DNA of 34,663 nt from a virus. Lineage: Duplodnaviria; Caudoviricetes. Within the stretch, counting starts at the first letter, position 1. The number at the start of each line of letters is the position of its first letter. The notes under the pieces were generated by a model, which was not told the DNA's origin, did not search any database, and saw only the letters and a program-made list of their open reading frames with translations. Shown here one piece after another: positions 365 through 25,735 of this stretch. The stretch is taken from positions 1 to 34,663 of IMG/VR virus record IMGVR_UViG_3300004213_000018; one strand, 5' to 3'. The translations under genes were made by a program, and so were the position numbers.

Positions 365-390
365 AGGGCGCCCCACGGGGCGCCCTTCTT
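364..390. terminator. likely bidirectional intrinsic terminator
   Basis: AAGGGCGCCCC-AC-GGGGCGCCCTT inverted repeat followed by CTT, lying between convergent genes. Confidence 0.8.
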
Positions 391-393
391 GTA

Positions 394-2365: not shown

Positions 2366-2394
2366 ACCCGTGTGATTTCAGGGTAATGGGAAGA

Positions 2395-2417
2395 GAGAAG
2401 TTACCCGGCAACTTCTC
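2395..2417. repeat. short palindromic site (GAGAAGTTACC-C-GGCAACTTCTC) overlapping the sbcC stop codon
   Basis: 11-bp arms with one mismatch. The 16 bp AGAAGTTACCCGGCAA is identical to 16557-16572. Confidence 0.8.
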
Positions 2418-4374
2418 CTAGTTCCTGTGGATTATCAAGGTCGATCACCAAGTCCGCCACGTCGACCGCGCGGTGGGTGATGAGGATGATCTGGGACAGC
2501 CGGGCCTTGAGCCGCTGGAGCGCCAGCTTCGTCGCCGATCGGCGCTGCTCGTCGGCGTCGCTGTCGATCTCATCGCCGAGGAACACGGGGAAAGCATCGG
2601 CGACCAGAGCCTGGCCGAGCGCGATGCGCAGCGCCAGATTGGCGACCGTCTCGCCCGCGCCCGACAGCGTCTCGATCCGCTGCCCATCGACGGTGATCTC
2701 CATGTCGTCGTCCACGACCACACTCGACAGCTCGCCCGCGCTCATGTCGTAGATCAGCGACGAGGCGATGCGCGACAGCATCGGCGCGAGGTGCGCCTTG
2801 AAGGTGGCACGGGCCTCGCCCAGCCGCGTGCTGCCCTCACGATACGCCTCGGCGCGCCGCTGGTTCTCCGCGATCGCTGCGGTGTCGGCGGCATGCTTCA
2901 CGACGTCGGCGTCGTACCGCTCGATCGCCGCCTCGTAGATCTTGGCGTGCGTCAGCCGCTCCTGCAACTCGTCGAGCTGGTCATCGGCCATTGGCTTGCC
3001 GTTGACCCCGATCCACGCCTCCAGCTTCTCGCGCGCGGCGCGGGCGCGCTCGACAGCGGCATCAAAGGCCTCGCTCTGCGCGTCGAACCGCGACCACGCC
3101 GCGTGCGCGGTGCGCAGCCCGTCGAGGTCATGGACCTGCACAGGGTTGCCCAGCAGCTTGATCTCGGCCTCGGCATCGACCGCAGCGTTGTAGGCGGCGA
3201 GGCGCTGGCGCGCGTGGCGTGCGCCGCCGGGGGCGAGCGAGCCGGCTGCGTCATCCGGGGCGGGCGGCAACGGCGTGGCCCAGTTCTCGATCGCGCGATG
3301 CTCAGCCATCAGTGCCGCCCGGCTGACCGCCGGCTCGGTCGGTACGTCGCCACCGACGCGGAACTTGGTGCCGCACGAAGGGCATTCGGCCTGCTCGTCG
3401 CTCATGCGCTGGCGCAGGTCGATCTCCTCCCATACGCCGCGGACCGCCTCGATCTCTTCGCGGGTCATGGTCGGCTGCGGCCCGCGCGCGTCGCGTAGCT
3501 GCTCCCACTCGTACCGCGCTTCGGCCATCGCGATCAGGCCTTCGCTGTCCACGGCGTCCTTCGGTGCGGCGTCGATGATCTTCTGGAGCCGGGCGCGCTC
3601 GCGCGCGGTAGCGTCGGCGTTCGCCTGCACCGTGACCGCCTCATCGACCTGCGCGCGGCTCACACGCGCGCCCTCCGGCCGCCGCGGCGCGGTAACCTGC
3701 TGGACGGTGTCGTTCTCCCTCCGGTCATGCTCGACACGCAGCTGGCGCGCGCGCGTGAGCGTCGTGGCGATGTCGGTCGACAGGGCGTAGCCCTCGGGCT
3801 TTACCGGCTCGACCGGCGCGCGCAGCGCGGAGGTCAGCCCCTCGGCCACTCCCTTGAATTTCTTCGCTTCGTCGCGGCACGCCTTCTCGATCGTCTCGTA
3901 GGTGGCGAGGCCGACGACCTTGTCGATCAGCTGCTTGCGCTCGCTGGCGCGCAGCTGGCCCAGCTTGTCGGTTTGCTTCTGGACAGCGGCATTGGCGAGG
4001 TCGAACACGTCGAGGCCATAGCCCAGCAGCTCGATCACCTTGGCCGTCACCGCGTCCGCGCCGACCGCCTCGACGACGCCAGTGGTGAGGTCGGTCAGCT
4101 GCTCGCGTCGTGGCGTGCGCTTGATGTGAACCCGCTTGCCGCCGAGCCGGAAGGTGCCCTCGGCATGGAAGTCGCTGTAGTCGGCGGCCATGCCGCGCAG
4201 GGCCTTCTTGCCAAACAGCAGGTAGCGCGGCGTCTCGACCGCCAGCAGGCTTTTGCCGCTGCCGTTCCGCCCGATGACGGCGGTGATGCCTGGTGGAGGC
4301 GAAAGCTCGCCCGAGAAGGACCAGCTCTTGATAGGGGTGACGAACGTGGCCGTCGCTTTGATGTGCTCGATCAT
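2401..4374 (-). CDS. sbcC: SbcC/Rad50-like SMC ATPase (recombination exonuclease subunit)
   Basis: Walker A GRNGSGKS, coiled coils, central CPSC zinc hook, signature LSGAGE, Walker B FLGDEID, H-loop ILITH. Confidence 0.92.
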   Translation of the reverse strand: MIEHIKATATFVTPIKSWSFSGELSPPPGITAVIGRNGSGKSLLAVETPRYLLFGKKALRGMAADYSDFHAEGTFRLGGKRVHIKRTPRREQLTDLTTGVVEAVGADAVTAKVIELLGYGLDVFDLANAAVQKQTDKLGQLRASERKQLIDKVVGLATYETIEKACRDEAKKFKGVAEGLTSALRAPVEPVKPEGYALSTDIATTLTRARQLRVEHDRRENDTVQQVTAPRRPEGARVSRAQVDEAVTVQANADATARERARLQKIIDAAPKDAVDSEGLIAMAEARYEWEQLRDARGPQPTMTREEIEAVRGVWEEIDLRQRMSDEQAECPSCGTKFRVGGDVPTEPAVSRAALMAEHRAIENWATPLPPAPDDAAGSLAPGGARHARQRLAAYNAAVDAEAEIKLLGNPVQVHDLDGLRTAHAAWSRFDAQSEAFDAAVERARAAREKLEAWIGVNGKPMADDQLDELQERLTHAKIYEAAIERYDADVVKHAADTAAIAENQRRAEAYREGSTRLGEARATFKAHLAPMLSRIASSLIYDMSAGELSSVVVDDDMEITVDGQRIETLSGAGETVANLALRIALGQALVADAFPVFLGDEIDSDADEQRRSATKLALQRLKARLSQIILITHRAVDVADLVIDLDNPQELGEVAG

Positions 4375-4392
4375 GGGGATGTCGTACTCCTA

Positions 4393-4455
4393 TTCTTCTT
4401 TATAGGTGTGCGTTTTTATCAAGTTACCGGGTAACTTGATAAAAATACATGTAGT
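4393..4455. repeat. long AT-rich palindromic element, copy 1
   Basis: Perfect 16-bp arms TTTTTATCAAGTTACC-G-GGTAACTTGATAAAAA (4413-4445). The whole ~62 bp aligns with 16881-16943. Lies between the divergent sbcC and endolysin genes. Confidence 0.9.
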
Positions 4456-4465
4456 AGGATCTGAT

Positions 4466-5056
4466 ATGTGGACGCCTGAGCAGTTCATCGCCAACTTCAA
4501 GCAGCGGTGGGAAGGCGGCATGAGCCGCGACCCCAACGACGCCGGCAACTGGTCGGGCGCGAAAAAGGGTGTCGGCACCCTCGTCGGGTCCAACCACGGC
4601 ATCACCGGCGCAGTGCTGGCTAAGTCGCGCGGCAAGCCCGTGACCATGAAGGACATGGAGGCGCTGACACCGGCTGAGGCTGGCCGCATCGCCCTCCAGA
4701 TGTTCTACAAGGACGTCGGCCTCGACAAGCTGCCGTGGAACCGCGTCACCGCCTCTGTCATGGACTTTGGCTACAACGCCGGCCCGCTCCGCAGCATCAA
4801 GCTGTTGCAGGACATCCTCGACGTCAGCATGGACGGTCAGATCGGACTGGGCACGACCGGCGCGTACAAGGCGCGCCTCGCGCGCGTCGGCGAGCAGGTC
4901 ATGGCTGGCGCGTTCTGGGCGATGCGCGAGGAATATTACGAGGATCTGGTCGCCGCGCGCCCGAGCGACGGCATCTACCTCAAGGGCTGGGACAACCGCT
5001 CGGACTATTACTTGCCCGGTCACCCGGAGGGCTGGTGGAACAAGTTCGGCGCGTGA
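4466..5056 (+). CDS. endolysin, glycoside hydrolase family 108 with C-terminal peptidoglycan-binding region
   Basis: WEGGMSRDPNDAGN...SNHGIT, DFGYNAG, LQDIL...DGQIG..T, YLKGWDNR. ATG 4466 follows AGGA. Confidence 0.9.
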   Translation: MWTPEQFIANFKQRWEGGMSRDPNDAGNWSGAKKGVGTLVGSNHGITGAVLAKSRGKPVTMKDMEALTPAEAGRIALQMFYKDVGLDKLPWNRVTASVMDFGYNAGPLRSIKLLQDILDVSMDGQIGLGTTGAYKARLARVGEQVMAGAFWAMREEYYEDLVAARPSDGIYLKGWDNRSDYYLPGHPEGWWNKFGA

Positions 5057-5238
5057 CCGACCAACAGCTCCTCGTCACCCTGAACATCATCCGCTCGGTG
5101 ATCCTGATCGCCGCGATTGTCGGCGCGGTGTCGTACCGTCACATTGACCGTCGAATCGTCATCTGTGTTGCTGCGCTTGTGCTTGTGCTCAACCTGTGCG
5201 GGCTGGCGATCGCCACCTTTTTGGTGAACCATGCCTGA
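5053..5238 (+). CDS. small two-TM membrane protein (holin/antiholin candidate)
   Basis: GTG overlaps the endolysin stop (GTGA). 61 aa MTDQQLLVTLNIIRSVILIAAIVGAV...IVICVAALVLVLNLCGLAIATFLV with two hydrophobic segments. Confidence 0.7.
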   Translation: MTDQQLLVTLNIIRSVILIAAIVGAVSYRHIDRRIVICVAALVLVLNLCGLAIATFLVNHA

Positions 5239-5641
5239 CAACTTCCTGACCAACGCCAGCCACGGGCGCTACCGCTGGACCATCATCGCCTTCGCGCTCG
5301 CCGGGCTGCTCATCAGCGCCCTCGTGGTGTGGCAGCTGTACGAGATGACCCCGGCGCGCTGGTGCGTGCTGGCCAAGCAGGGATCGCCCGAGTTGGCGAC
5401 CGGCTGCTTCAACGTCCTGCTCAAGCTGCTGGACATCAAGGACCATGCCCTGATGATGCTCATCGGCGTGCTGGCCCTGACCATCATCGCCGTCGTCGCG
5501 GTGGCCCTTGGTGTGCGCATTTCCGGTGCTGCACCCGGTGGTTTCAGCGTTGATGTCGGCGCGGACAAGACCACGGTCGCGGCCGACGGCGGACAGGCCA
5601 CGATCGACACCCCTCCTACTGCCCGAGAGGCTGAACAATGA
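5231..5641 (+). CDS. two-TM membrane protein of the lysis cassette (holin candidate)
   Basis: Two hydrophobic helices flanking a loop with two Cys. Located between endolysin and spanins. Confidence 0.7.
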   Translation: MPDNFLTNASHGRYRWTIIAFALAGLLISALVVWQLYEMTPARWCVLAKQGSPELATGCFNVLLKLLDIKDHALMMLIGVLALTIIAVVAVALGVRISGAAPGGFSVDVGADKTTVAADGGQATIDTPPTAREAEQ

Positions 5642-6075
5642 CCCTGTCGAACCCCCTGACCGCACCACTCTGGAAGATCGGCACCTTCGCCGCCGGTCTG
5701 ATCTGTTTGGTCCTCTCCGGCTTTCTGATCGCCAGCACTCTCGAAAATCGTGGCCTCGTCGTTCAGCGTAGCGCGCTGTCTGCGCAGATCAACGACCCGA
5801 AGGTCGGCTTTGTGGCACGGCTGGCGCAGGCGAACACCAATGTCGAGACGCTGAAGGTCGCGCTTAACACCCAGCGCCAGAGCTTTGAGACGAAGGCGGC
5901 GCAGCGTGAAGCCGTACTCGCCGAGACGTCGCGCAAGTTGAAACTTGCCCAAGTCTCGACGCGGACTATGCAGTTGAAGCTGGACCGTTTTCTGGCCACC
6001 AAGCCGCAGGGGGCTACCCTTGAAGATCGGGTGCGTGATATTGACCAGCGCGCGCTTTCGGAGCTTGTTCAGTGA
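5638..6075 (+). CDS. inner-membrane spanin (Rz-like)
   Basis: N-terminal TM followed by a long coiled coil, immediately upstream of a lipoprotein gene. Confidence 0.8.
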   Translation: MTLSNPLTAPLWKIGTFAAGLICLVLSGFLIASTLENRGLVVQRSALSAQINDPKVGFVARLAQANTNVETLKVALNTQRQSFETKAAQREAVLAETSRKLKLAQVSTRTMQLKLDRFLATKPQGATLEDRVRDIDQRALSELVQ

Positions 6076-6374
6076 AGAACCTCGTACCTATCCTTGGTCT
6101 GGCTCTGCTCGGCGCTTGCGCGACAAAGCCGGCCCCGCGTCCCGAACCGATCGTCGTGCCGCAGCCTGTTGCGGTAGCGGTTGACGCACCGTGCGTGCCT
6201 GACACGCTGGGCAAGGCTCCTGCCTATGTCGACACCAAGGACAAGCTGGTCGGCGCAGCGGACGCAGCGGAGCGCCTGCAGCTGCTCTACGCCGGCCGCG
6301 CGCAGCGCGAGGCGCGGCTGAACGAGATCGAGCCGATCATTGACGGGTGCCCTCGCGGTTCCGTGAAGAAGTAA
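6072..6374 (+). CDS. outer-membrane spanin (Rz1-like lipoprotein)
   Basis: Signal peptide with lipobox LLGAC, Pro-rich linker, GTGA overlap with the i-spanin gene. Confidence 0.85.
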   Translation: MKNLVPILGLALLGACATKPAPRPEPIVVPQPVAVAVDAPCVPDTLGKAPAYVDTKDKLVGAADAAERLQLLYAGRAQREARLNEIEPIIDGCPRGSVKK

Positions 6375-6378
6375 CACC

Positions 6379-6780
6379 ATGAGCATGATCGATCAGGAGG
6401 CGCGTGATAAGGCGAGCCAGGCCCTGCATGATCTCAACAATCATAAGGCCGTGACGGAGATCGAGCTTCGCACGCTGAAGGCGCTCGTCGTCGAGCTGAA
6501 ATCGCAGCTGAAGTGGGCTGGCGGTCTGATCGTGATGCTGTTCATCAGCACCCTGACGTGGTCGCTTGCCCAGCAGTACAGCGCCAATGAGGCGCAGAAG
6601 AAGGACATGGCCCAGCAAATCGAGCTGCTGAAGGAGCAGGAGCGGGCGCGCAATGCGTCCCGCTCCGAAATCCTGAGCCGCCTACCGGCCGGTACTACCG
6701 AGGCCACCGACACCACGGGCAGTCTCGCTCAAGCTGGCAACCTCAGCCGTAGCCGCACGAGTAACGGGGCAGAGAACTAG
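6379..6780 (+). CDS. single-TM coiled-coil protein at the end of the lysis cassette
   Basis: Coiled coil, then WAGGLIVMLFISTLTWSLA, then coiled coil. The 3' end overlaps dut convergently. Confidence 0.7.
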   Translation: MSMIDQEARDKASQALHDLNNHKAVTEIELRTLKALVVELKSQLKWAGGLIVMLFISTLTWSLAQQYSANEAQKKDMAQQIELLKEQERARNASRSEILSRLPAGTTEATDTTGSLAQAGNLSRSRTSNGAEN

Positions 6781-7122
6781 CTGGGCGATCCGATCGCCGC
6801 GCTTGATCTCGTGCGCATTGCGACCGAGGTGCGACAGGATCACCATCAGCTCACCGCGATAATCCTCGTCAATCGTTCCGATCCCATTCGTCACGAACAC
6901 GCCGTGCTTCGCTGCTAGTCCACTTCGGCTGCGCACCTGCAGTTCGTGACCGGCCGGCACCTCCACGGCGAACCCGGTGGTGAAGATCTTGGTGTTGCCG
7001 TGGAACAGCTTGAAGTCCTCGGCGGAACAGATGTCCATGCCCGCTGCGCCGGGCGTGGTGTACGTCGGCAAAGGCAAGTTCTCCCCGTGGGGCAGGCGCA
7101 GGAACTTGAGCGTTAGGTCCAT
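6682..7122 (-). CDS. dut: trimeric dUTPase
   Basis: GAAGMDI, RSRSGLA, GTIDEDYRGE, GDRIAQLV, RGVGGLGSTG. ATG 7122 has a GGAG RBS. Confidence 0.95.
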   Translation of the reverse strand: MDLTLKFLRLPHGENLPLPTYTTPGAAGMDICSAEDFKLFHGNTKIFTTGFAVEVPAGHELQVRSRSGLAAKHGVFVTNGIGTIDEDYRGELMVILSHLGRNAHEIKRGDRIAQLVLCPVTRAATAEVASLSETARGVGGLGSTGR

Positions 7123-7381
7123 ATCGGATCTCCAGATGTGTGATGCCAAGATCAACCGCTGTCTCCAATCGCTTGGCGTCGATGCAGAGAGCGAACTCGC
7201 GATCGCGTGGTGGCTTGTGCGAGCTGATCCGAATGACGGACTCGCATGGTGTGCCGGGGAAGAGGATAACGTAACGACTGTCGGAGTGGGCAATGGTGCT
7301 GCACTCCATCTTGCAAGGCAGACCCAGCGACCGAGCCTTGTCAATCAGCTTGATCGCCACCTCGCCGCTGTTCCTCACCAT
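6869..7381 (-). CDS. hypothetical protein (N-terminal ~88 aa plausible; tail overlaps dut)
   Basis: MVRNSGEVAIKLIDKARSLG...SRYVILF...IRISSHKP fills the sbcD-dut gap. The frame runs on into dut before stopping. Confidence 0.45.
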   Translation of the reverse strand: MVRNSGEVAIKLIDKARSLGLPCKMECSTIAHSDSRYVILFPGTPCESVIRISSHKPPRDREFALCIDAKRLETAVDLGITHLEIRYGPNAQVPAPAPRGELAFADVHHARRSGHGHLFRRGLQAVPRQHQDLHHRVRRGGAGRSRTAGAQPKWTSSEARRVRDEWDRND

Positions 7382-8333
7382 TGGGAAGTCTCTCCTGAAT
7401 GAAGGCGCGAACCTCCGGGTCAAGAGGGTCCAGCGCCGCGCGGACAATACCGGGCCAGTCAAATTTGTCCAAGGATAGGGAGCCTCCACCGTTGTCCGAT
7501 TGCACGCGCTGCGCAGGGACGGCGGTGACGGCGAAAGCGTCAAGGGTCGGCTTCTCCTCGCCGGGGGCGAGTGTGATGCGAACGCACTTGTCGCGTAGGC
7601 TGTCAGGGGGTGCCGCCAGCGCCTCGGCCAACGTCATGGTGACGTAGATCAACCCTTCTGGGTCTTCGCCATGTCCGTAGGGTTCAAGCGATCCGGTCCC
7701 GTGGATCGTGACACCATCGACGACATAATCTCGGGGGGCGTGGTAGTGGCCCGAATATAGCGGGACCGTGCCGAAGGCGTCGCGAAGAGCAACGACAGGG
7801 GCAAGATGGAGGTCTTCACCCCCGAACGACGAGAGATCCCAGTGTCCGACGGCGGCGACGGGTCCGGCGCTTCCTCGGGCGGTGCGTGCGAGGCTGGTGA
7901 CTTGGTCGACGGCATTACGATCCCACTCCCACGGGAAAAACGCTACCTCGCCGATCAACGCCGGCTTGGTCAAGATGAAGAGGTTGGGGTAACGCCGGTG
8001 GCACGCCACCTTGAACACGTTGAAGGCGGCCGTGGCGGTCACCTTGCGCGGCATGTCGTGATTGCCGGCCATCATGATGAAGAGGGTGCTGGGACGGTTA
8101 ATAGCCGCCGCCAACACCGCGTCGATCGCCTGCTTGACGATCGTGTGCGACACGTAGGGGTTGTCGAACAGATCGCCGACCATCACCACCATGTCGCCGG
8201 GCGCGGCCAGCTGCTCGATGAATTTCCGAAGCTGACGAGCTTCACGCTCACCGCGTCGGTGGGCCGGAACCCCGACCTCGAACTTGCGCCCGAGGTGGGG
8301 ATCACCAATCAGCCAGCCGCGCTCGAACTGCAC
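7341..8333 (-). CDS. sbcD: SbcD/Mre11-like metallophosphoesterase nuclease
   Basis: GDPHLG, VGDLFD, AGNHD, VGHWD, SGHYH, GTGSL motifs. Confidence 0.9.
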   Translation of the reverse strand: MQFERGWLIGDPHLGRKFEVGVPAHRRGEREARQLRKFIEQLAAPGDMVVMVGDLFDNPYVSHTIVKQAIDAVLAAAINRPSTLFIMMAGNHDMPRKVTATAAFNVFKVACHRRYPNLFILTKPALIGEVAFFPWEWDRNAVDQVTSLARTARGSAGPVAAVGHWDLSSFGGEDLHLAPVVALRDAFGTVPLYSGHYHAPRDYVVDGVTIHGTGSLEPYGHGEDPEGLIYVTMTLAEALAAPPDSLRDKCVRITLAPGEEKPTLDAFAVTAVPAQRVQSDNGGGSLSLDKFDWPGIVRAALDPLDPEVRAFIQERLPNGEEQRRGGDQAD

Positions 8334-8336
8334 GGC

Positions 8337-8525
8337 TTACGCCAGGATGCCGCCGGGGCGGGTCTTCATCGACTTGGTCTTGTCGCCGTCGGTGACGTCC
8401 ACCACGACGAACTGGCCGTCATGTCCGGTCACGGTGCCGGAGCGAATGACCTGCGTCGGGCCGGCCTTGAACGAAACGGTCGAGCCAACGGCGAAGTCGG
8501 TGGGAAGGGGTGTGGTCTTGGGCAT
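8337..8525 (-). CDS. small beta-rich (SH3-like) hypothetical protein
   Basis: 62 aa MPKTTPLPTDFAVGSTVSFKAG... with a GGAG RBS. Confidence 0.7.
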   Translation of the reverse strand: MPKTTPLPTDFAVGSTVSFKAGPTQVIRSGTVTGHDGQFVVVDVTDGDKTKSMKTRPGGILA

Positions 8526-8532
8526 TGGGGTT

Positions 8533-8556
8533 CTCCAGCGCGGACATGCGCTGGAG
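8533..8556 (-). promoter_or_regulatory. RNA hairpin covering the RBS of the 62-aa gene
   Basis: Minus strand CTCCAGCGC-ATGTCC-GCGCTGGAG. The 3' arm contains the GGAG Shine-Dalgarno. Confidence 0.5.
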
Positions 8557-8583
8557 GGACTTCTAAGACCCTGATTTTCTAGG

Positions 8584-8964
8584 TCAAGGACGATTTGCGA
8601 AGCTCGACGATACGACCGCTTTCTGGGCTTGCTTCCGGCGTATCTTCTCAATCACCTCCGGCTGCTCGCAGCGGTAGAACTCAGTACGATAGGCGTCGTC
8701 GGCATCCAGCCCGGTGACGACGCATAGCGACGCCAGCGTCACCAAGGTTCCGCCCAAGTCCTGCCGCGGCTCGCCAGCCGGCTTGTCGTAGACCTGCTTG
8801 ACGAGGGCCTGCGCCTGCTCGCGCGTGACGCCGAGGCTCTGGATCAGCTCCAGCGCCTCTTCACCGAAGCGCAGGCCGCGCTCCTCGACATCCTTGAGAC
8901 TGGCCTTGCCGAACACCTTGGTCAGCCAGCTGCGGACACGGGTCTTTTCCCAGACAATCTTCAT
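8584..8964 (-). CDS. MazG-like all-alpha NTP pyrophosphohydrolase candidate
   Basis: ERGLRFGEEALEL...VYDKPAGEPRQDLGGTLVTL, an EExxE pattern typical of phage MazG-like proteins. Confidence 0.6.
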   Translation of the reverse strand: MKIVWEKTRVRSWLTKVFGKASLKDVEERGLRFGEEALELIQSLGVTREQAQALVKQVYDKPAGEPRQDLGGTLVTLASLCVVTGLDADDAYRTEFYRCEQPEVIEKIRRKQAQKAVVSSSFANRP

Positions 8965-9329
8965 GGGTGGCTCCAGATTGCAAGGGTGATCGCCGCAGCT
9001 GCCGCGGAGGCGGCCGACAGGATCGCGGCGACCATCGCCCACTCGATTGCTGCGACCGACAGCACGGTTGGCGACAGCCACCACAGCAACACCGCGGCCA
9101 AAGCCACGACGACAGCAACGAGGGCGACGTTGGTCATCAGCGTGACCGGCTCGTGTAGCTCGGCACGGCGCTTACGCACCAGTTCGGCCGAGCGCCGCGC
9201 GGCGGCGTCCATCGACATGAACGGCCAGCCCTCGGGCTTCTCGCCCTCGCGGGCGGTGCCTGGCCATGCGACGCCCTCGCCGCGAAAGGCGTCACGGAAA
9301 TCGCTGATGTTCAGGGTATCGGTCATCAT
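8961..9329 (-). CDS. membrane protein (two C-terminal TM segments)
   Basis: Hydrophobic C-terminal half; translationally coupled at both ends. Confidence 0.7.
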   Translation of the reverse strand: MMTDTLNISDFRDAFRGEGVAWPGTAREGEKPEGWPFMSMDAAARRSAELVRKRRAELHEPVTLMTNVALVAVVVALAAVLLWWLSPTVLSVAAIEWAMVAAILSAASAAAAAITLAIWSHP

Positions 9330-9895: not shown

Positions 9896-10119
9896 GCGAC
9901 GAACGCCGGCGCGCCCGCGCGCGGCTTCCACGAGATGCACAGCCAGTTCGGCGTCGGGCGATGCGTGGTGCCCTCGTCATCGACGATGCGATGACTGCCA
10001 TTGGCGAGCACATAAAGCAGCGCTGGGTTGCTGATGCGCAGCACGCCGCCGTTCGCATAGCGATACTCGCGGTACTGCTCGGTTGAAATGTCGGTGGGCA
10101 GGATGCCGCCGACGCTCAC
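9892..10119 (-). CDS. small conserved-looking phage protein
   Basis: GTG 10119 (GTGA overlap). DISTEQYREYRY...GSHRIVD...WLCISWKP. Confidence 0.65.
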   Translation of the reverse strand: MSVGGILPTDISTEQYREYRYANGGVLRISNPALLYVLANGSHRIVDDEGTTHRPTPNWLCISWKPRAGAPAFVA

Positions 10120-10541
10120 AGAGTTGGTTGCCAAGGGGTCAGCTCCTCGAATTTCAGGGACGCCCGGCCCTCGGCGAGGGTCGCTGCGTACTGCTTGCAG
10201 GGCATGACATACCACTGCGCATGGTGGAAGGAATAGATGTAGAAATTGTAGGGTCCGTGGACCCGCGCCTGCCGCAGTGCCGCGCTCGATTGGCCGGGCT
10301 GGATGCCGTGGAAGGAGAAGCTGGTCTTGTGGACCGTCGACTTCACCTCGGCATATTGCAGCAGCCCATTCAGCGTCACGAGATAATCGGACGGCTTGGG
10401 ATAGTCGCCGACGGCACGGCCGCCGTTGCGGCCCCGGAGATCAGCCTGATCCCAGAACCGCTCGACGACCGCGCCGAGGCGGGCCATGATCGAGAGGAAG
10501 CCCGCCTCGGCGGACTTACCGTCGTTGCGCGCCGGCATCAT
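10116..10541 (-). CDS. Holliday junction resolvase / PD-(D/E)XK nuclease
   Basis: GKSAE, PSDYLV...YAEVKST; adjacent to the polymerase gene. Confidence 0.75.
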   Translation of the reverse strand: MMPARNDGKSAEAGFLSIMARLGAVVERFWDQADLRGRNGGRAVGDYPKPSDYLVTLNGLLQYAEVKSTVHKTSFSFHGIQPGQSSAALRQARVHGPYNFYIYSFHHAQWYVMPCKQYAATLAEGRASLKFEELTPWQPTL

Positions 10542-10749
10542 CGACCACCGTCACGTTGGTGCGCAGCCAGTAGGTCAGCGCCAGCATGAAGACGAAGCCT
10601 AGATAGACGCCGCGGAAGGGCAACGACCAGTCGCCGGGGTTGGCCTGCCATGTGATCCACGCGGTCGCGCCCCACGAGAGCGCGCCGATGATGACGGTGA
10701 GCAACAGGAAGCCGAGCAGGCGGCCGAGTTGGGTGCGGGTGATTGTCAT
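10516..10749 (-). CDS. small two-TM membrane protein
   Basis: 77 aa with two hydrophobic helices; ATGA overlap with the polymerase stop. Confidence 0.7.
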   Translation of the reverse strand: MTITRTQLGRLLGFLLLTVIIGALSWGATAWITWQANPGDWSLPFRGVYLGFVFMLALTYWLRTNVTVVDDAGAQRR

Positions 10750-13352
10750 GCGAACATCCAGTCCAAAAGTTCAGCGACCTTCTGCTCCGAAAGAACGGTG
10801 CCTTCAAGGTCTTTGTCGACGACGCCGGGGATGACCTGTGCCTCGTCCAGCTCGATCTGGCTGAACGGGGTGCCATCGAACGGGCGGAAGGTCCGGCCGA
10901 TTGCCACCGTGCAGTGCAACGGCAGCGTTGACACGATCGTCGGGTGCTCGGTCATAGCGGCGCGCAGCAGCGGGATGAACGCCATCACGAAGCGACGGGG
11001 CACGGAGAAGACCAGCTCGTCGTGAATCGGCATCATCAGACGCGGCCCACCAAGGCCCATTGGCATGCCGGCGTCGGCGCAGAGGGTGCGCAAACGGATC
11101 AGCGACCGCTTGGCCATCGTGGCGCAGGTGCCCTGGATCATGGCGTTGACGGCTTGGTTCTTTGCGCGAGCCGACAGGCGGCGCGCGGCCGTCTCGGCAT
11201 AGCGCACCATGCCCGGCGCAGCCGTGATGTCGACGAACTTCTGGATCAGCGCCTTCTGCCACTCGTAGGTGGCCTCGAAGCGGTTGCGCCGGTGCCCGTC
11301 AGGCAGCACGACGTAGCCGTTCATCGCGGCTTCCTCCTGCACACCCACGCGCCACGCCTCCGCGATCGGGAAGCGCGCCCGGTAGTTGTCCACCAGCTCC
11401 CAGTGCTCGTCGTCCGACAGGCTCAGGTTGTTGGCGACGGTCGAGAGCGCGCCCGAATACCAGTAGGAGAAGTTCACGCCCTTGCCGACCGCGGTGCCAC
11501 GGGCGAACTTGTGGTAGTCCTTCGGCGTCAGAATGGTGCCGCTGAAGTTCCGCAACACACGGTCATTCGGATTGCGTCCGAACTTGAACTCGCGGAACTC
11601 GTCCTCGGTGAGGCCAGGAAGAGTTTTGACGCACAGCGCATCGACCGCGGCACCGGAGTGCATGTCACCGTAAGGGATCTGTCCGTAGACCTTGGCGAAG
11701 CCGGGATCGCCGGATCGATCGCCGATGAGGACCAGCTCGATGGCGGACCAGTCAGCGGAGACGACCACGCAATCATCGTCATCACCAAGATAGAAAGAAC
11801 GGATGTACGCGCTACTGCCCGACTTGGCGAGCTGCATCGGGTTGGGGAAGGACGTCGCGAGCCGGCGCGTGGCCAGCTGGGACGAGAGGGAGGGGTAAAC
11901 ACGGCTCGTCTCCGGGTCCATGAGCTGGGTGTAGGGCGTCAGGTACAGCTTCATTCGCTGCTCGATGTCAGCCATATCCTGCAGCAGTTCCATGACGCCG
12001 AAGGCCTCGGTGTTACCGGCCTTCTCGAACGCCTCACGGATCTTGCCGCGCGCCTCGGCATCCGACGCCACGCTGCCGTCGCTGTAGCGCATCTTCGCGC
12101 CCAGCAGATCGTAAATGATCGTGCGCATCGTCTGGTAGTAGACGAGGTTCAGCTTGCCGGCCTTGACCTTCATGCCCTGCTCGGCGGCCCATGCGTTGCC
12201 GATCGGGTTCGACACCTGGAAGCACTGCGTGAAGTCGTCGTCGCTGTCCGGCGACACGGCCCACAGTGCGATGTCGCTGCGCTTCTTCTGCCAGTTCTTC
12301 TCGTACCAGCTCTCGTACTCGGTCAGCTTGGCGTGCGGCTCGTCCTTGAACGGCAGCAGTGAACGAACGGCGGCCTTGAGCGTGCGCAGCTTGGCGGCCA
12401 TCGCGATGCGCTCCAGCCGCTGTCGCTCGAACACCTGCTCCAGATCGAGCCGGATGCCCTGCATCCACGCCTCGGCATACTGGAGAACCATCGGGTTCTC
12501 TTGGCTGAAGAACGCCTGCAGAGCGTGCGGGTTGAACCGCAGCATCTCGTCGAACATCCACAGGTAGTGCTGGACGGCCCAATAGGCGTCGTCGGCACCG
12601 TAGGAGCAGACCTGCTCACCGGTCAGCTCGCCCATGTGCGTCGCGCCGGCCTGCGCCAGCGTGTCCTTGAACGTCGCCTGCTCGTAGCCGAACCGGCTCT
12701 TGGTCAGCGCCTTGAGGCTGTAGCCCTTGGCGATCGACTTCACGAAGCCGTTGTAGCTGTGCTCGGCCTTGGACTCCTTGGCCGTGAACTTGCCCAGCAG
12801 CTCGGTCGCTTCGTCGGTGTTGCCGCCCTCGGCCCACGCGCGAACGATGTCGGGCACCAGCTTGTGGAAGGCGCGCGGGATCGGCGTCGCATAGAAGGTC
12901 GAGAGGTCGTACTCGTCGGGGCCGTGGTGCGACACCGCCATCTGCAGCGTGCAGACGAGGTTGCGCAGGTCGATGCCGGCGAACGTCATCGTGTTGGCGA
13001 TCTCGAACGGCGCGTTGTGCGCCACGCAGATCGTGTCGTCGCTGGCCGCGGCCAGCACCTGATGCAGCACATCGACCGGCAGGCGGTTCTCGACGTCGGC
13101 GTGGTTGAGGTTCACGTACCAGCTGTAGGGCGATCCCTTGCAGTGGATCGAGAAGCCGGTGATGACCGTGCGCCGCACGTCGAAGACGTGCCGGACGGCG
13201 GTATTGTAGAGGTTGAGGCCGGGGTGCCGGTTCTCGTCCTGCGTCTCGATGTCGTAGCCGTACAGCTCGGTCGTGCGCAGCTCTTCAAGGAGACGGGGCA
13301 GGGTGTGCTCGACGTTACGGGCATCGATCAGGATCGGGGTCGTATGCGACAT
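10746..13352 (-). CDS. polA: family A DNA polymerase with 3'-5' exonuclease domain
   Basis: Exo motifs YDIET, HNAPFE, YGADDA; TRRLATSFPNPMQL; motif A SADWSAIELV; motif B KGVNFSYWY; AVNAMIQGTCA; motif C PIHDELVF. Confidence 0.95.
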   Translation of the reverse strand: MSHTTPILIDARNVEHTLPRLLEELRTTELYGYDIETQDENRHPGLNLYNTAVRHVFDVRRTVITGFSIHCKGSPYSWYVNLNHADVENRLPVDVLHQVLAAASDDTICVAHNAPFEIANTMTFAGIDLRNLVCTLQMAVSHHGPDEYDLSTFYATPIPRAFHKLVPDIVRAWAEGGNTDEATELLGKFTAKESKAEHSYNGFVKSIAKGYSLKALTKSRFGYEQATFKDTLAQAGATHMGELTGEQVCSYGADDAYWAVQHYLWMFDEMLRFNPHALQAFFSQENPMVLQYAEAWMQGIRLDLEQVFERQRLERIAMAAKLRTLKAAVRSLLPFKDEPHAKLTEYESWYEKNWQKKRSDIALWAVSPDSDDDFTQCFQVSNPIGNAWAAEQGMKVKAGKLNLVYYQTMRTIIYDLLGAKMRYSDGSVASDAEARGKIREAFEKAGNTEAFGVMELLQDMADIEQRMKLYLTPYTQLMDPETSRVYPSLSSQLATRRLATSFPNPMQLAKSGSSAYIRSFYLGDDDDCVVVSADWSAIELVLIGDRSGDPGFAKVYGQIPYGDMHSGAAVDALCVKTLPGLTEDEFREFKFGRNPNDRVLRNFSGTILTPKDYHKFARGTAVGKGVNFSYWYSGALSTVANNLSLSDDEHWELVDNYRARFPIAEAWRVGVQEEAAMNGYVVLPDGHRRNRFEATYEWQKALIQKFVDITAAPGMVRYAETAARRLSARAKNQAVNAMIQGTCATMAKRSLIRLRTLCADAGMPMGLGGPRLMMPIHDELVFSVPRRFVMAFIPLLRAAMTEHPTIVSTLPLHCTVAIGRTFRPFDGTPFSQIELDEAQVIPGVVDKDLEGTVLSEQKVAELLDWMFA

Positions 13353-13364
13353 CTTGGATACTCC

Positions 13365-13586
13365 CTATGTCAGCTGGTGGATCTTGTAGTGCGCTACGGC
13401 CTCGGTCAGCTCGTTGCAAGCAATATCGAGGAGTTCATCAACCGATGCGCCGCTGGCCGCCGCGGTGCCGACCAGCACGCGGGCCAGCATGTTGAGCAGC
13501 GGTGCGGTGATATTGGTGGCCGGCTCGCGGTCGGCGATCGCCTCCTTGACGGCACTCTCGATCTTCTCGGTCAGGACGTGGGGCAT
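13365..13586 (-). CDS. hypothetical protein
   Basis: 73-aa helical ORF with TGATG coupling. Confidence 0.65.
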   Translation of the reverse strand: MPHVLTEKIESAVKEAIADREPATNITAPLLNMLARVLVGTAAASGASVDELLDIACNELTEAVAHYKIHQLT

Positions 13587-13804
13587 CAGCCATACGTCTC
13601 CCGTAGATCACGCTCGATCTGAACGGCAATGCTGCGGCCTTCGTAGCGCGCCTTCTCCTTGAGCTTGGCGTACATCTCCGGCGGCAGGCGCACGGTGAAC
13701 GCGGGATAGTCGCGGCGGATACAAACCTGATCGTCAGGGATCGGCTTGCGCCCGCGCCCGCGGCGGTTGGTCTGCGCTTGTTCGGACTTCAGTTCACGCG
13801 ACAT
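13586..13804 (-). CDS. Arc/Mnt-like ribbon-helix-helix DNA-binding protein
   Basis: DYPAFTVRLPPEMYAKLKEKARYEGRSIAVQIERDL, preceded by a basic RRGRGRKP arm. Confidence 0.85.
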   Translation of the reverse strand: MSRELKSEQAQTNRRGRGRKPIPDDQVCIRRDYPAFTVRLPPEMYAKLKEKARYEGRSIAVQIERDLRETYG

Positions 13805-14006
13805 CAGGTCGCTCCTTCTCTTCGACAGCGGCGATCGCGGCGTCGCGCGCCTGCCGGTAGGCCTGCGGGTCGCTGCGCAGGTTGCGGTAGGTGTCGAACA
13901 CGGCGTGGTTCAGGGCGCGCGGCACACGCCGCCAGTGCGGCCAGCACATCAGCTGGCCGTCCTTGGCCGGCTTCTCGCAGCCGGAGATTGCGCAGGCGTG
14001 GCTCAT
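13794..14006 (-). CDS. small Cys/His (zinc-binding) protein
   Basis: MSHACAISGC...LMCWPHWRRVP. Start at ATG 14006. Confidence 0.7.
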   Translation of the reverse strand: MSHACAISGCEKPAKDGQLMCWPHWRRVPRALNHAVFDTYRNLRSDPQAYRQARDAAIAAVEEKERPDVA

Positions 14007-14530
14007 ATCGTCTCTCCGTTCGCGTTGACGCGGCGCAGCTGGTTGACCAGCGATGGGTTCAGCCACCAGCGATCGTTCACCTCATCGCCGAGCGGCATGG
14101 CCTGCTGCATCCGCCAGAACCGCTCCAGCACCGTCTGCGGCACGCGGTGGTTCTCCGGCCGGCTGGCATTGCGGTCGATCACCTCGCCCCACGTCAGGTC
14201 GAAATAGACCACGTTGACGGCCATGCCATATTTGCGGGCGGTCTTGTGAAAGTTCTCGACGGCCTTCCAAGCCAACCCGGTATCGGAGAGGATCACGTCG
14301 TCGTAGATGCCGTGGCGCAGCGCGGTCACCATCGCCTTGTGCATCGTCGGGCCGATCAGCAGGGCAAGGTCGGGCTTAGCGGCCAGCTCGCCGTGGTAGC
14401 GGTAGCGATCGCCGAACAGGCACTCGCGCATCCGGTCGCGCTCCAGCCGCAGGGCGTGGCGGAAATGAGTGTCAGCGTAGGTCGACTTGCCGCTGCCGGG
14501 CAAGCCAACCGTAATCGTGAGCGTCTTCAT
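14003..14530 (-). CDS. polynucleotide kinase-like P-loop kinase (no phosphatase domain)
   Basis: ITVGLPGSGKST, ERDRMR, VILSDT, RNASR...VP. Confidence 0.85.
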   Translation of the reverse strand: MKTLTITVGLPGSGKSTYADTHFRHALRLERDRMRECLFGDRYRYHGELAAKPDLALLIGPTMHKAMVTALRHGIYDDVILSDTGLAWKAVENFHKTARKYGMAVNVVYFDLTWGEVIDRNASRPENHRVPQTVLERFWRMQQAMPLGDEVNDRWWLNPSLVNQLRRVNANGETI

Positions 14531-15306
14531 AGGAAGAACTTCTCCAGCAGGGCGAGCGCCGCGGCGCGGTCGGGAGTGCCGAACCGCGTGCCGCCGTCCA
14601 GCTCGTCGTCAGGCACGTTCTGGAAGTGAGTGACCAGCAGCATGTTCTGCAGCAGGTCGACGTTGGCTTGGTCGGTCAACCACGCCTTGATCGCGGGGGT
14701 GAAAGGGATCGGCTCGAACGCCGCCGGGTCGCCGGCCACGATCGCGGCCTGGATGGCGTCCCAGTGCGGTTCCAGCTTTTCCCAGCGGCCGTGGCCGAAG
14801 CCCTTGATGCCATCGATGTTGTCGCTGCTGTCGCCACACATCGCCTTGTAGAGCGCGATGCGCTTGGCATCGATACCCTTCATGTTCACGCCATTCAGCG
14901 TGCAGAGGTGGGCGATCTGGCCGTAGTCCATGTCGTTCGAATGGACGCGGCAGTGGACGCCCTTGGCGGCGAAGCGGCGCACCAGCGTGGCGATGACGTC
15001 ATCCGCCTCCCAGCCGTGAACCTCGAACTGGATGGCCGGCGAGTGCGCAGCGACGTCGCGCCACAGGCGGATCTGAGCGTAGATGTCCTCGGGCGTTGGC
15101 GACCGGTTCATCTTGTACTGCGGGTAGATTTCACGGCGGCGCGCATTGTGGTCGCGGCCATCCCAGCACCATATCTGGGTGCCGGCAGGCTGCGCCATCG
15201 CATGCTCATAGCGCATGCGCAGCGACATCGGACGCTGGCCCGGCAGCTGTGCCTTCTGCTCGAAGGCACGGCGCATGACGTTGTTGCCGTCATAAAGGTC
15301 GATCAC
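14527..15306 (-). CDS. 5'-3' exonuclease / flap endonuclease
   Basis: YDGNN, CWDG, RREIYPQYKMNR, WEADDVIA, SNDMDY, GDSSDNIDGIKGFG. GTG start at 15306. Confidence 0.92.
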   Translation of the reverse strand: MIDLYDGNNVMRRAFEQKAQLPGQRPMSLRMRYEHAMAQPAGTQIWCWDGRDHNARRREIYPQYKMNRSPTPEDIYAQIRLWRDVAAHSPAIQFEVHGWEADDVIATLVRRFAAKGVHCRVHSNDMDYGQIAHLCTLNGVNMKGIDAKRIALYKAMCGDSSDNIDGIKGFGHGRWEKLEPHWDAIQAAIVAGDPAAFEPIPFTPAIKAWLTDQANVDLLQNMLLVTHFQNVPDDELDGGTRFGTPDRAAALALLEKFFL

Positions 15307-15458
15307 GGCCACAGGACGACCCCTGCGGTGCCCTGCAGGACGGTCGCAGCGATCAGGAGCCAGCCAATGCGCGGCTGATCGATCGTCCAGTCGAACGCGC
15401 CAGCTGCGGCCCATGCACACGATGCGGCGCAGAGGAACAGGAGGATGGAGAGGATCAT
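15303..15458 (-). CDS. small membrane protein (51 aa)
   Basis: Translated by hand: MILSILLFLCAASCAWAAAGAFDWTIDQPRIGWLLIAATVLQGTAGVVLWP. Coupled by 4-bp overlaps at both ends. Confidence 0.65.
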   Translation of the reverse strand: MILSILLFLCAASCAWAAAGAFDWTIDQPRIGWLLIAATVLQGTAGVVLWP

Positions 15459-15784
15459 ATTTCTTGCTCCAGCATACCGACGACGGCGTAGAACTCTTCG
15501 TCGGTGCGGATGAGGGCTTGGCTCTTGCGCCAGCCGTAGAGGATCGAGGTGTGGTCCTTGCCCAGCAGCGCGCCTACGCGCGGCAGCGACCAGCCAACCC
15601 GATCAATGAGAACGTGGGCGATCGCCCAGCGCGCCCGGCTGATGTTGCCGTGACGGCGCTGCGATCGAAGCTCGTCCGGCGTGACGCCGAAATGAGCGCA
15701 GGCACACGCGACAAGGCGGCCCGACACCGTAGTGCCGGGCCGCCCCGTTGGCCGATCGGAGGTGAAGCCGACCGTCGCCAGCAT
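15455..15784 (-). CDS. stand-alone DnaA C-terminal (domain IV-like) HTH protein
   Basis: AHFGVTPDELRSQRR...ISRARWAIAHVL...SLPRVGALLGKDHTSILYGWRK matches the DnaA domain IV signature. Confidence 0.85.
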   Translation of the reverse strand: MLATVGFTSDRPTGRPGTTVSGRLVACACAHFGVTPDELRSQRRHGNISRARWAIAHVLIDRVGWSLPRVGALLGKDHTSILYGWRKSQALIRTDEEFYAVVGMLEQEI

Positions 15785-16464
15785 CAGTCGCGGATCTTCT
15801 CGATCAGCTCGAACTGGGCGACGCCCCACTTGTTGTTGTTGCGGTTGGTCCGCATCAGGTGGGTGACCTTCACCTTGACCACCGCATCCTGCAGGCCCTG
15901 CTTGGTGAGGGTCCGCACGAACGACTGGAACTCCTTGAAGCCCGTCACGGAGGGGGTGATGCCGATCCGCGTTTCCGCGGGGACCGTCACGCCGTCGCCC
16001 GACTTGACGTCGTCCAGCAGGGTGACGGGGATCTCGGCCGTCTGGTACACGCCCGAGCACTTGGTGGTCGCTTCCAGATGGGCGAGCGCCTGCTGGAAGT
16101 TCTGCCCGTTCGGCGTGACCACGCCGTCATAGGACTTGATGAACTTGGTGTTGCCACCAACCTCACCGCGCGCCGAGTAGATCGGCACGACCTCGTTCAT
16201 GTCGAGTTCGGCTTCGAACGACTCGAAATACTTCTTCATGTCCGTGCCGATCTGGAAACCGGCCTGGTCCATGCGAAGGTAGTCGTCGACGCTGATGCCG
16301 CCGGCTTCGGCGAAGGACGCCATGCTGGGCTTGGCGAGAGCGCCTGCGCCGCCGGCCGGGGCCAGCTGCTGACCGGCGCCCTGGTCGAGGGCCGGAGGCG
16401 AGAAGGAAGCAGCCGCGCCAGCGGCCTGATCCATGACACGATCGAGAGCGGAGTTCTGAGCCAT
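15784..16464 (-). CDS. conserved-looking replication protein, possible ssDNA-binding protein
   Basis: 226 aa, strongly biased codons, own promoter, beta-rich, located between helicase and exonuclease. Function inferred from context only. Confidence 0.6.
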   Translation of the reverse strand: MAQNSALDRVMDQAAGAAASFSPPALDQGAGQQLAPAGGAGALAKPSMASFAEAGGISVDDYLRMDQAGFQIGTDMKKYFESFEAELDMNEVVPIYSARGEVGGNTKFIKSYDGVVTPNGQNFQQALAHLEATTKCSGVYQTAEIPVTLLDDVKSGDGVTVPAETRIGITPSVTGFKEFQSFVRTLTKQGLQDAVVKVKVTHLMRTNRNNNKWGVAQFELIEKIRD

Positions 16465-16518
16465 TTTGTGTTCCTGTTTCAGATGTTGTTCGCCGACGCG
16501 GTTGCGACCGGTGAGGCG

Positions 16519-16547
16519 CTTTTAGCGTGCGCCACGCGCAATGCCAA
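16519..16547 (-). promoter_or_regulatory. sigma70-like promoter
   Basis: Minus strand TTGGCA-N17-TAAAAG (GCTAAAAG) upstream of the 226-aa gene. Confidence 0.5.
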
Positions 16548-16555
16548 GGTAATCT

Positions 16556-16578
16556 TAGAAGTTACCCGGCAATCTCTA
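16556..16578. repeat. short palindromic site (TAGAAGTTACC-C-GGCAATCTCTA)
   Basis: Shares the 16 bp AGAAGTTACCCGGCAA with 2396-2411. Abuts the stop codon of the DUF1653 gene. Confidence 0.8.
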
Positions 16579-16875
16579 TCGCAGCTCCGTGAACCGGTCT
16601 GCAGTGAACTCGTCGACGGGCCGGACGAACTCGATGTCGGCCTCGCGGAATTTGTCAAAATCGGGACCGGCGATACGGCGGTAGCGGACGCGCACCTTGC
16701 CGGTGTCGCTGTCGATGGCGTGGCCGGTGACCCGGTAGACGCCGCCCTTCTTGTGTTTGTAGGTCGTGCCCAGCTGAACACGCTCGCGAGCCTGCCGCAG
16801 CTCGTCGTTGAGGATCGCGGTGCGAGTGGCGGCCTCGGAAGAGGCATTCCAAGGTTCTTGCTGTGGATCGGTCAT
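16576..16875 (-). CDS. DUF1653-domain protein
   Basis: YKHKKGGVYRVTGHAIDSDTG..VRY...FVRPVDEF..RF. AAGGAG RBS. Confidence 0.8.
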   Translation of the reverse strand: MTDPQQEPWNASSEAATRTAILNDELRQARERVQLGTTYKHKKGGVYRVTGHAIDSDTGKVRVRYRRIAGPDFDKFREADIEFVRPVDEFTADRFTELR

Positions 16876-16880
16876 TAGGT

Positions 16881-16943
16881 TTCTCCTTTATAGGAATGCG
16901 TTTTTATCTAGTTACCGGGTAATTAGATAAAAAATATGTATTA
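16881..16943. repeat. long AT-rich palindromic element, copy 2
   Basis: TTTTTATCTAGTTACC-G-GGTAATTAGATAAAAA (16901-16933, one mismatch). Flanks also match copy 1. Confidence 0.9.
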
Positions 16944-16948
16944 TAGAA

Positions 16949-19183: not shown

Positions 19184-19216
19184 TGCGGACCTCCTGAAAC
19201 CTGTTAAACGTAAGCC

Positions 19217-25720: not shown

Positions 25721-25735
25721 GAGTTACCCGGCAAT
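25721..25735. repeat. short site GAGTTACCCGGCAAT upstream of nrdJ
   Basis: AGTTACCCGGCAA is identical to the copies at 2399 and 16560. Intergenic, a few bases past a stop codon. Confidence 0.75.

What the first reader, a model, noticed from the sequence alone, without database searches (positions are those of the whole stretch)
2395..16943. Two unrelated genes are each bracketed by a long and a short palindromic site
Seen: sbcC has the long element upstream (4393-4455) and a short site on its stop codon (2395-2417). The DUF1653 gene has the same layout: long element upstream (16881-16943), short site at its stop (16556-16578). The two short sites share 16 identical bp (AGAAGTTACCCGGCAA), and each has an extra GGTAAT half-site just outside (2382, 16548). 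The asymmetric centre reads CCG in short sites and CGG in long sites on the top strand, so each pair is an inverted repeat around its gene; for sbcC, 2398-2414 matches the reverse complement of 4421-4437 at 16 of 17 positions. Inference: this could be (a) paired operators that loop DNA around single genes, (b) ends of a gene-cassette capture or inversion system, which might also explain why sbcC is displaced from sbcD, or (c) promoter/terminator punctuation. No recombinase gene is visible in the window.
Basis: partly seen in the sequence, partly recalled or inferred. Interest (0 to 1): 0.85.

Follow-up and report, generated by a model that had tools for sequence, protein, structure and literature searches.

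The report
Phage promoter boxes, not gene brackets
The palindromes are real, but they do not bracket single genes: in this phage and its relatives they recur in front of operons at fixed distances from promoter-like sequences, and are likely docking sites for a phage-made protein that switches on DNA-replication and other genes, a familiar type of control.

Summary
The four sites exist as described and exceed chance, but a fifth, unpaired site at 25723 was missed, and the bracket layout is a coincidence of tight gene packing. The window is part of a roughly 83-kb Seuss-like phage. In relatives the same TAC-N3-GTA box occurs 8-13 times per near-complete genome, nearly always ahead of a gene start (41 of 46 leave-one-genome-out hits). 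The short boxes stay with the gene downstream, not with the stop codon upstream (9 to 8385 nt from the DUF1653 stop). They sit 14 nt before a TTG and 36 nt before a TA, which would centre them near -55. The long boxes add T/A arms and a TA 24-28 nt downstream. sbcC and DUF1653 never invert among relatives, partner centres do not match, and no recombinase was found in 5 of 5 near-complete relatives. Best reading: binding sites of a phage-encoded dimeric regulator, likely an activator working like P2 Ogr. The binder is unproven. One oddity: long copies are more alike within a genome (0.75) than at the same gene across genomes (0.53). The scan held no look-alike stretch; it noted similar kinds in other phages.

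The parts
2400..2412 (-). Short box; its right half holds the sbcC stop codon; lies ahead of the 128-aa HTH gene and thyA
   Evidence: orthologous box in relatives. The window copy lacks a clear -35/-10 at the usual spacing
2375..2387 (-).
   Evidence: 12.7 bits; not at a fixed place in relatives
1943..2329 (-). 128-aa protein with a predicted N-terminal three-helix HTH; first gene behind the 2400 box
984..1943 (-). Thymidylate synthase, same predicted operon
2401..4374 (-). SbcC-like SMC ATPase; start codon 55 nt from the centre of the long box
4393..4455 (-). Long promoter cassette: box GTTACCCGGTAAC centred at 4429, TTT/AAA arms 13-15 nt from the centre
4399..4404 (-). TATAAA 25 nt from the box centre, predicted -10 of the long cassette
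   Evidence: inferred
4466..6780 (+). Lysis cassette (GH108 endolysin; holin-like and spanin-like genes named by position and sequence only), divergent from sbcC; first start codon 37 nt from the box centre
   Evidence: same layout in relatives
15784..16464 (-). Conserved 226-aa gene of unknown function (labelled ssb226 in my scripts, a guess), heading the predicted exonuclease-DNA polymerase operon
   Evidence: no informative family or structure match
16519..16524 (-). TAAAAG, predicted -10, 36 nt after the short box
16542..16547 (-). TTGGCA, predicted -35, 13 nt after the short box; overlapped by a weak second box at 16541-16553
16561..16573 (-). Short box of the 226-aa gene promoter
16576..16875 (-). 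DUF1653 gene; start codon 42 nt from the centre of the long box
16881..16943 (-). Long promoter cassette, box centred at 16917, TATAAA at 16887-16892
25723..25735 (-). Fifth site (short type), unpaired, with TGGCGA at 25703-25708 and TACACC at 25680-25685; ahead of the reductase gene
   Evidence: orthologous box in G002, G003, G004
23280..25652 (-). B12-dependent-type ribonucleotide reductase
25930..26391 (-). 153-aa protein with two predicted HTH domains (C-terminal one XRE-like), predicted homodimer; one of two candidate binders

Best explanation
The five sites are copies of one clade-wide palindrome, TAC-N3-GTA, that sits in front of operons and is likely the binding site of a phage-encoded dimeric transcription factor that probably activates host RNA polymerase. 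Shown: the box recurs at orthologous gene starts across relatives, stays with the downstream gene, and keeps fixed distances to TTG and TA elements. Inferred: short boxes are centred near -55 of sigma70-type promoters (TTGNNN, 16-17 nt, TANNNN), where an activator would contact the polymerase alpha subunit, as P2 Ogr does. Long boxes carry TTT/AAA arms one helical turn out and a TA 24-28 nt downstream, which would put them at about -36 to -40, in place of a -35. In the window the predicted targets are sbcC, DUF1653, the HTH-thyA operon, the polymerase operon and the reductase; relatives add terminase and head genes. The bracket arises because a one-gene unit with a long box lies directly upstream of the next operon's short box. 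The binder is not shown; candidates are the 153-aa two-HTH protein (25930-26391) and a 168-aa early HTH protein seen in six relatives.
For: Matrix hits of 11 bits or more: 13, 12, 13, 8 and 12 in five near-complete relatives against 0-4 in simulated sequence. Leave-one-genome-out: 41 of 46 hits lie in promoter-like positions that make up about 5% of the sequence, and a matrix from relatives alone ranks four window sites first. Short boxes: TTG exactly 14 nt after the box in 13 of 19, TA at 36 nt in 15 of 19; reductase boxes have TA at 37 nt in 4 of 4. The box centre lies 55-58 nt from the sbcC start in 14 of 14 boxes found, four of them in loci not used for the matrix. The box follows the downstream gene: 9, 280, 295, 352, 534 and 8385 nt from the DUF1653 stop, and 7, 98 and 740 nt past the sbcC stop in L067, L070/L071 and L078. 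The core is invariant, not covarying: C-G in 58 of 58, A-T in 55 of 58. Long boxes: TA at +24 to +28 in 23 of 25 against 3-10 of 25 in six control windows. TTGNNN/TANNNN is the alphaproteobacterial consensus (PMC7566282, passages). The 153-aa protein is in 5 of 5 near-complete relatives and was not detected in Seuss, Lumi, JWF or KB12-38. Its dimer model scores 0.81 against best control 0.00, with 100% contact agreement and pLDDT 86 or more; that mark was reached by 20 of 30 solved pairs and 1 of 23 single chains, and a pass may reflect likeness to solved XRE dimers.
Against: There are no start-site, expression or binding data. The 19 short sites come from only three orthologous promoter sets, so they are not independent, and the +24 to +28 window was chosen after looking at the data. 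The window's own 2400 box lacks both the -35 and the -10 at the usual spacing. The fifth site is not among the top eight for the relatives-only matrix; that matrix finds 0 sites in G008 and only 1 promoter-like hit of 3 in G007. Eight further related loci (L072, L073, L076, L081, L082, L084, L085, L086) show no box 55-58 nt before sbcC, and the G001 and L052 boxes were picked by eye. For sbcC both spacings fit, so the start site is ambiguous. Activation versus repression is argued from position only.
Confidence: 0.7

Rival explanations
1. The boxes are dispersed operators of a phage repressor that holds replication, lysis and head promoters down, as in temperate phages.
For: Long boxes would overlap the -35 region, and they lie 21-37 nt before the lysis gene start. 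Weak second boxes overlap the -35 at 16541 and in G009. The 153-aa candidate has an XRE-like domain. The wider family has members called temperate (JWF, PMC9959647 passage; an integrase is annotated in KB12-38).
Against: Short boxes end 14 nt upstream of the -35 at a fixed spacing, outside the usual repressing position (my knowledge). No integrase in 5 of 5 near-complete box-bearing relatives.
Confidence: 0.14
2. The sites act as RNA hairpins (weak terminators or processing sites) at gene ends.
For: Many boxes contain the upstream stop codon. The three short window sites have a G-U-compatible mismatch on the coding strand; 5 nt from the centre there are 12 G-U against 2 A-C; 7 nt out there is an excess of pairs (33 vs 23.7, p=0.002, uncorrected and ignoring kinship). 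Two window sites fold at about -17 kcal/mol (all).
Against: The core shows almost no compensatory change, many sites do not fold on the dyad, and long copies in G002, G005, G008 and G009 mostly fold at only -2 to -6 kcal/mol. The T-tract precedes the long palindrome, the reverse of a terminator. None of the sites is called a terminator, and Rfam has no hit. The box leaves the stop codon when genes intervene.
Confidence: 0.06
3. A host protein binds the box, for example a MatP-like or LexA-like factor.
For: GTTACNNNGTAAC is a Photorhabdus matS site (bioRxiv 2021.06.29.450292, passages), and TTAC-N3-GTAA is the Bdellovibrio LexA motif (PMC8565304, passage). The 4423 box matches both exactly.
Against: The outer bases needed for either motif vary: exact TTAC-N3-GTAA occurs 1, 6, 0, 1 and 7 times in the five near-complete relatives, while TAC-N3-GTA occurs 11-14 times. 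The promoters look alphaproteobacterial, a group with a different LexA motif. No phage MatP was found. The host is unknown, so a host factor was not tested directly.
Confidence: 0.05
4. The paired sites are recombination sites that invert, excise or capture the gene between them, or operators that loop DNA around it.
For: The window's sbcC pair matches at 16 of 17 when inverted. Gene content between the helicase and the 226-aa gene varies among relatives. In run X3, a strain about 88-90% alike, contigs begin or trail off at 2416, 4416 and 4438.
Against: Orientation is fixed in 9 of 9 records; inverted identity is only 9-14 of 17 in seven relatives; no recombinase in 5 of 5. In run X1, which may be the source, single contigs at depth 40-43 span all five sites, and none of the 10 joints touches a site. 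The X3 breaks are also what repeated copies of a cassette would cause.
Confidence: 0.05

Closest known systems
P2 Ogr activator sites (PMC3152322, passages)
   Same: An inverted repeat centred near -55 of host-polymerase promoters, repeated at several phage operons.
   Different: Different sequence; no Ogr-like protein found; targets here include replication and nucleotide genes as well as head genes; a second spacing class exists.
Mu Mor/C activators and restriction-modification C proteins (mechanisms recalled; fold leads)
   Same: Small dimeric HTH proteins that bind a short dyad next to the -35. The 153-aa protein resembles C.BclI and C.EcoT38I only weakly (E 0.13-0.4); the 168-aa protein has Mor-family neighbours at score 0.75-0.76, below the tool's 0.9 bar.
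   Different: Neither candidate reaches a family threshold, and the dyad differs.
PeSL regulatory cassettes of T4-like phages (PMC2839356 passages; PMC4122927 abstract)
   Same: Short, repeated, near-identical promoter cassettes; one long cassette borders a slot of variable gene content.
   Different: Only 2-3 long copies per genome, mostly before core genes; no terminator stem-loop; no consensus -35; no circles or exchanges shown.
matS of MatP and the Bdellovibrio LexA box
   Same: Same half-site letters and 3-bp spacer; the 4423 box is an exact match.
   Different: Outer bases are not conserved in relatives; the sites sit at fixed promoter distances.

Membership tests
Ogr-type phage activator site | Inverted repeat at a fixed position near -55 of a host sigma70 promoter | tested here: met
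   position inferred from TTG/TA spacing, not from mapped start sites
Ogr-type phage activator site | Ogr-family zinc-binding protein in the phage | tested here: inconclusive
   No such family among 58 window proteins or 80 of 105 G003 proteins; about 48 kb of this phage was not available
Ogr-type phage activator site | Protein binds the site and activates transcription | not testable with these tools
   needs band shift and reporter assays
Site-specific inversion or cassette system | Recombinase encoded | tested here: not met
   PF00589, PF00239 and PF07508 absent in 5 of 5 near-complete relatives, controls positive; none in the window; a host enzyme is not excluded
Site-specific inversion or cassette system | Partner sites share the central overlap sequence | tested here: not met
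   inverted match in 2 of 8 genomes, direct in 1 of 8, none in 5 of 8
Site-specific inversion or cassette system | Bracketed gene found in both orientations or as rearranged molecules | tested here: not met
   contigs drop rare forms, so rare events are not excluded
PeSL cassette | Strong sigma70 promoter joined to a terminator stem-loop | tested here: not met
   no consensus promoter or terminator called at the sites; weak folding
PeSL cassette | Recombination between copies shuffles genes | tested here: inconclusive
   copies are homogenised within genomes and one neighbouring slot varies; no exchange was observed
matS / MatP | Conserved GT(G/T)AC-N3-GT(C/A)AC consensus with MatP present | tested here: not met
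   outer bases vary; no MatP in 5 relatives; host not known
Intrinsic terminator | GC-rich stem followed by a U run | tested here: not met
   (one search covered 1-19500, so not the fifth site)

The most novel reading that the evidence does not exclude
The long cassette is a self-homogenising, movable promoter module. Its 2-3 copies are re-copied onto each other, and onto new genes, so that a core regulon changes sequence in step with its regulator. In G008 copies 53-56 of 59 identical sit before sbcC, the terminase and the operon holding the 153-aa regulator candidate. One ancestral TTAC half-site would have been kept across Seuss-like phages while the spacer changed: 3 nt here, 5 in Seuss, 7 in Lumi.
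Probability: 0.25. Interest if true: 0.55.

Novelty: new member of a known kind. Interest (0 to 1): 0.32.

Why it matters
It gives a first, testable transcription map for an uncultured clade of Seuss-like phages: a box, two promoter spacings, target operons and two candidate proteins. If activation is confirmed, it would be a compact regulator-promoter pair that is likely to work in alphaproteobacteria. It also removes a false lead, since there is no sign of a new inversion or cassette system. The homogenised long copies are the one feature a phage-evolution specialist may find surprising.

Tried and rejected
An exact search for the long site in viral contigs found 0. The strict pattern TTRCCNGGYAA found only 4 of 11 records because the core drifts. 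The rest of this phage's 83,046-bp contig (L049) could not be read beyond the stretch already in the window. No RNA holder was listed. The 128-aa HTH protein is ranked low as binder: it also occurs in Seuss and JWF, which lack the N3 box, and its fold matches are generic three-helix hits (Z up to 6.8; none under E 0.001). The Arc-like and DnaA-C proteins were rejected on distribution. The 168-aa protein gave 16 hits, none from a contig of 83,046 bp, so its presence in this phage is open. A plain sigma70 scan found nothing at the sites; it requires a T at -7, which these promoters lack. Rfam gave 0. JWF and KB12-38 show no enriched TTAC-Nk-GTAA. One search showed only 15 of 29 joints; one, in X3, ends at 4419 with a 20-nt side and is not interpretable. 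Paper searches found no description of this box in these phages. The Seuss paper (whole text) and the Lumi passages do not mention such palindromes. The JWF paper was not retrieved, no supplements were opened, and most subscription journals are not covered.
Full report
What the window is. The window is a whole virus record of 34,663 bases, estimated 42% complete; part of it is identical to a stretch of an 83,046-bp contig (L049). Its SbcC protein is 30-36% identical to those of Caulobacter phage Seuss, Xylophilus phage Lumi, Achromobacter phage JWF and kin. Eight closer records were found with the DNA polymerase (63-68% identity) and one with SbcC; all nine were read whole (G001-G009). G006 gives the same alignment values as G007 and looks like a partial copy. 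The host is unknown.

The observation. A fifth short site at 25723-25735 was missed and has no long partner. All five lie ahead of a gene on the minus strand: the 128-aa HTH gene with thyA, sbcC, the 226-aa gene heading the predicted polymerase operon, DUF1653, and the reductase.

The box in relatives. A matrix from 26 orthologous sites finds 13, 12, 13, 8 and 12 hits in the five near-complete relatives against 0-4 in simulated sequence, 6 and 9 in two partial ones, 0 in G001, and 3 each in Seuss and Lumi. With each genome left out of its own matrix, 41 of 46 hits fall in promoter-like positions that cover about 5% of the sequence; G008 gave none and G007 one of three. Sites recur before sbcC, the HTH gene, the 226-aa gene, the gene after the helicase, the reductase, the terminase region and the head operon. 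The core is TAC-N3-GTA. It is held as sequence, not as pairing: C-G in 58 of 58 sites, A-T in 55 of 58, T-A in 49 of 58.

The bracket is a coincidence. The short box follows the gene downstream. It lies 9 nt from the DUF1653 stop here, but 280, 295, 352, 534 and 8385 nt away in five relatives, each time ahead of the 226-aa gene; G004 and G008 keep it although no DUF1653 was detected. The box at the sbcC stop lies 7, 98 and 740 nt past the stop in L067, L070/L071 and L078, still ahead of the HTH gene. sbcC has one orientation in 9 of 9 records, and DUF1653 in 4 of 4 plus L051 and L052. The two boxes around sbcC share their centre as inverted partners in only 2 of 8 genomes. No recombinase of three families was found in 5 of 5 near-complete relatives. 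The lysis cassette sits divergent from sbcC also in L076, L081, L082, L084 and L085, which show no box there, so the sites do not explain why sbcC is parted from sbcD. In run X1 single contigs span all five sites at depth 40-43. X1 may be the source and contigs drop rare forms, so this is weak support. In X3 contigs break near the sites, which fits repeated copies as well as rearrangement.

Promoter geometry. After the 13-bp short box come 14 nt, then TTG in 13 of 19 sites (16 of 19 within one base), and TA 36 nt after the box in 15 of 19. These sites are three orthologous sets, so they are not independent; a fourth set, the reductase, has TA at 37 nt in 4 of 4. TTGNNN and TANNNN are the housekeeping promoter consensus of Zymomonas, and Caulobacter likewise lacks the T at -7 (PMC7566282, passages). 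If these are the -35 and -10, the box centre is at about -55 (inference), where P2 Ogr binds its inverted repeats (PMC3152322, passages). The window's 16561 and 25723 boxes fit; the 2400 box does not. The long boxes add TTT and AAA 13-15 nt from the centre (paired in 19, 21 and 22 of 22) and a TA 24-28 nt downstream in 23 of 25, against 3-10 of 25 in control windows (window chosen after looking); in the window this is TATAAA in both copies. That would put long boxes over the -35 position. The sbcC start is 55-58 nt from the centre in 14 of 14 boxes found; eight other loci have no such box, and three of those carry a plain TTGACA promoter just before the start.

The binder. The Arc-like and DnaA-C proteins are in 1 and 0 of 9 related records. 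The 128-aa HTH protein also occurs in phages without the box. Two candidates remain. The 153-aa protein at 25930-26391 is in 5 of 5 near-complete relatives and was not detected in the four cultured phages tested. It has two predicted HTH domains with only weak XRE matches. It models as a homodimer: score 0.81, best control 0.00, contact agreement 100%, pLDDT 86 or more; the mark was reached by 20 of 30 solved pairs and 1 of 23 single chains, and likeness to solved dimers may explain the pass. A dimer with four HTH units would suit a palindrome with inner and outer parts (inference). A 168-aa early protein with a C-terminal HTH occurs in six relatives, directly before a tandem pair of boxes in G002, G003, G004 and G008; its Mor-like neighbours are leads only, and it was not shown for this phage.

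What is unusual. Over 59 nt, long copies are 0.75 identical within a genome (20 pairs) but 0.53 at the same gene across genomes (48 pairs), and the nearest copy is in the same genome for 18 of 22. Their targets also differ between genomes. Shared selection by a lineage-specific protein could give part of this; 53-56 of 59 identity in G008 suggests recent copying. This recalls PeSL cassettes (PMC2839356, passages; PMC4122927, abstract), but the terminator is missing and no exchange was seen.

Verdict. The feature is real. It works like a phage transcription-factor site at host promoters, likely activating, and it is not a member of any recombination or cassette family tested. I found no description of it in print in the searches listed under Tried and rejected. 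It is a new member of a known kind; interest 0.32.

Noticed in passing
Lumi OQ067477.1 (L002, L047, L048) and Seuss KT001914.1 (L001, L045, L046): Lumi has 22 copies of TTAC-N7-GTAA (0.18 expected) and Seuss 7 of TTAC-N5-GTAA (0.09 expected), terminal-repeat duplicates included; many lie 10-25 nt before start codons, some over the ribosome-binding site. Not mentioned in the Seuss text or the Lumi passages read.
   Followed up: partly
G002 43552/43630; G003 21026/21102; G004 13669/13744; G008 26432-26816: A pair of boxes flanks a 60-100 bp AT-rich stretch right after the 168-aa early HTH gene; G008 has five further copies nearby. It could be a replication origin or the main early promoter.
   Followed up: partly
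window:16465-17425 and the same slot in relatives: The stretch between the helicase and the 226-aa gene varies from 93 to 8835 nt and holds DUF1653, other small genes or a tRNA, depending on the genome.
   Followed up: partly
window:4466-6780: The lysis cassette sits away from the structural genes, on the opposite strand between dUTPase/sbcD and sbcC; in Seuss, Lumi, JWF and KB12-38 sbcD lies next to sbcC or one short gene away. The endolysin itself differs between relatives.
   Followed up: partly
window:19217-19693, 29186-29689, 32851-33324: Three similar genes that look like mobile endonucleases; two score as endonuclease VII in Pfam and the third did not at E 0.001. In the related strain X3 other sequence replaces the first.
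   Followed up: no
G002-G005 and G009, head-operon leaders (for example G009 12717): A conserved GTGGTT...AACC hairpin lies about 35-55 nt downstream of the long box, seen by eye.
   Followed up: no
L082, L085, L086 upstream of sbcC: A TTGACA promoter ends about 6 nt before the start codon, which suggests a leaderless sbcC message in relatives without the box.
   Followed up: no
G002 5711, G004 54918, G005 7705, G009 42278: A box inside the 3' end of sbcD, 119-140 nt before its stop, conserved in four relatives; likely a promoter for the dUTPase gene. No such hit in the window.
   Followed up: no
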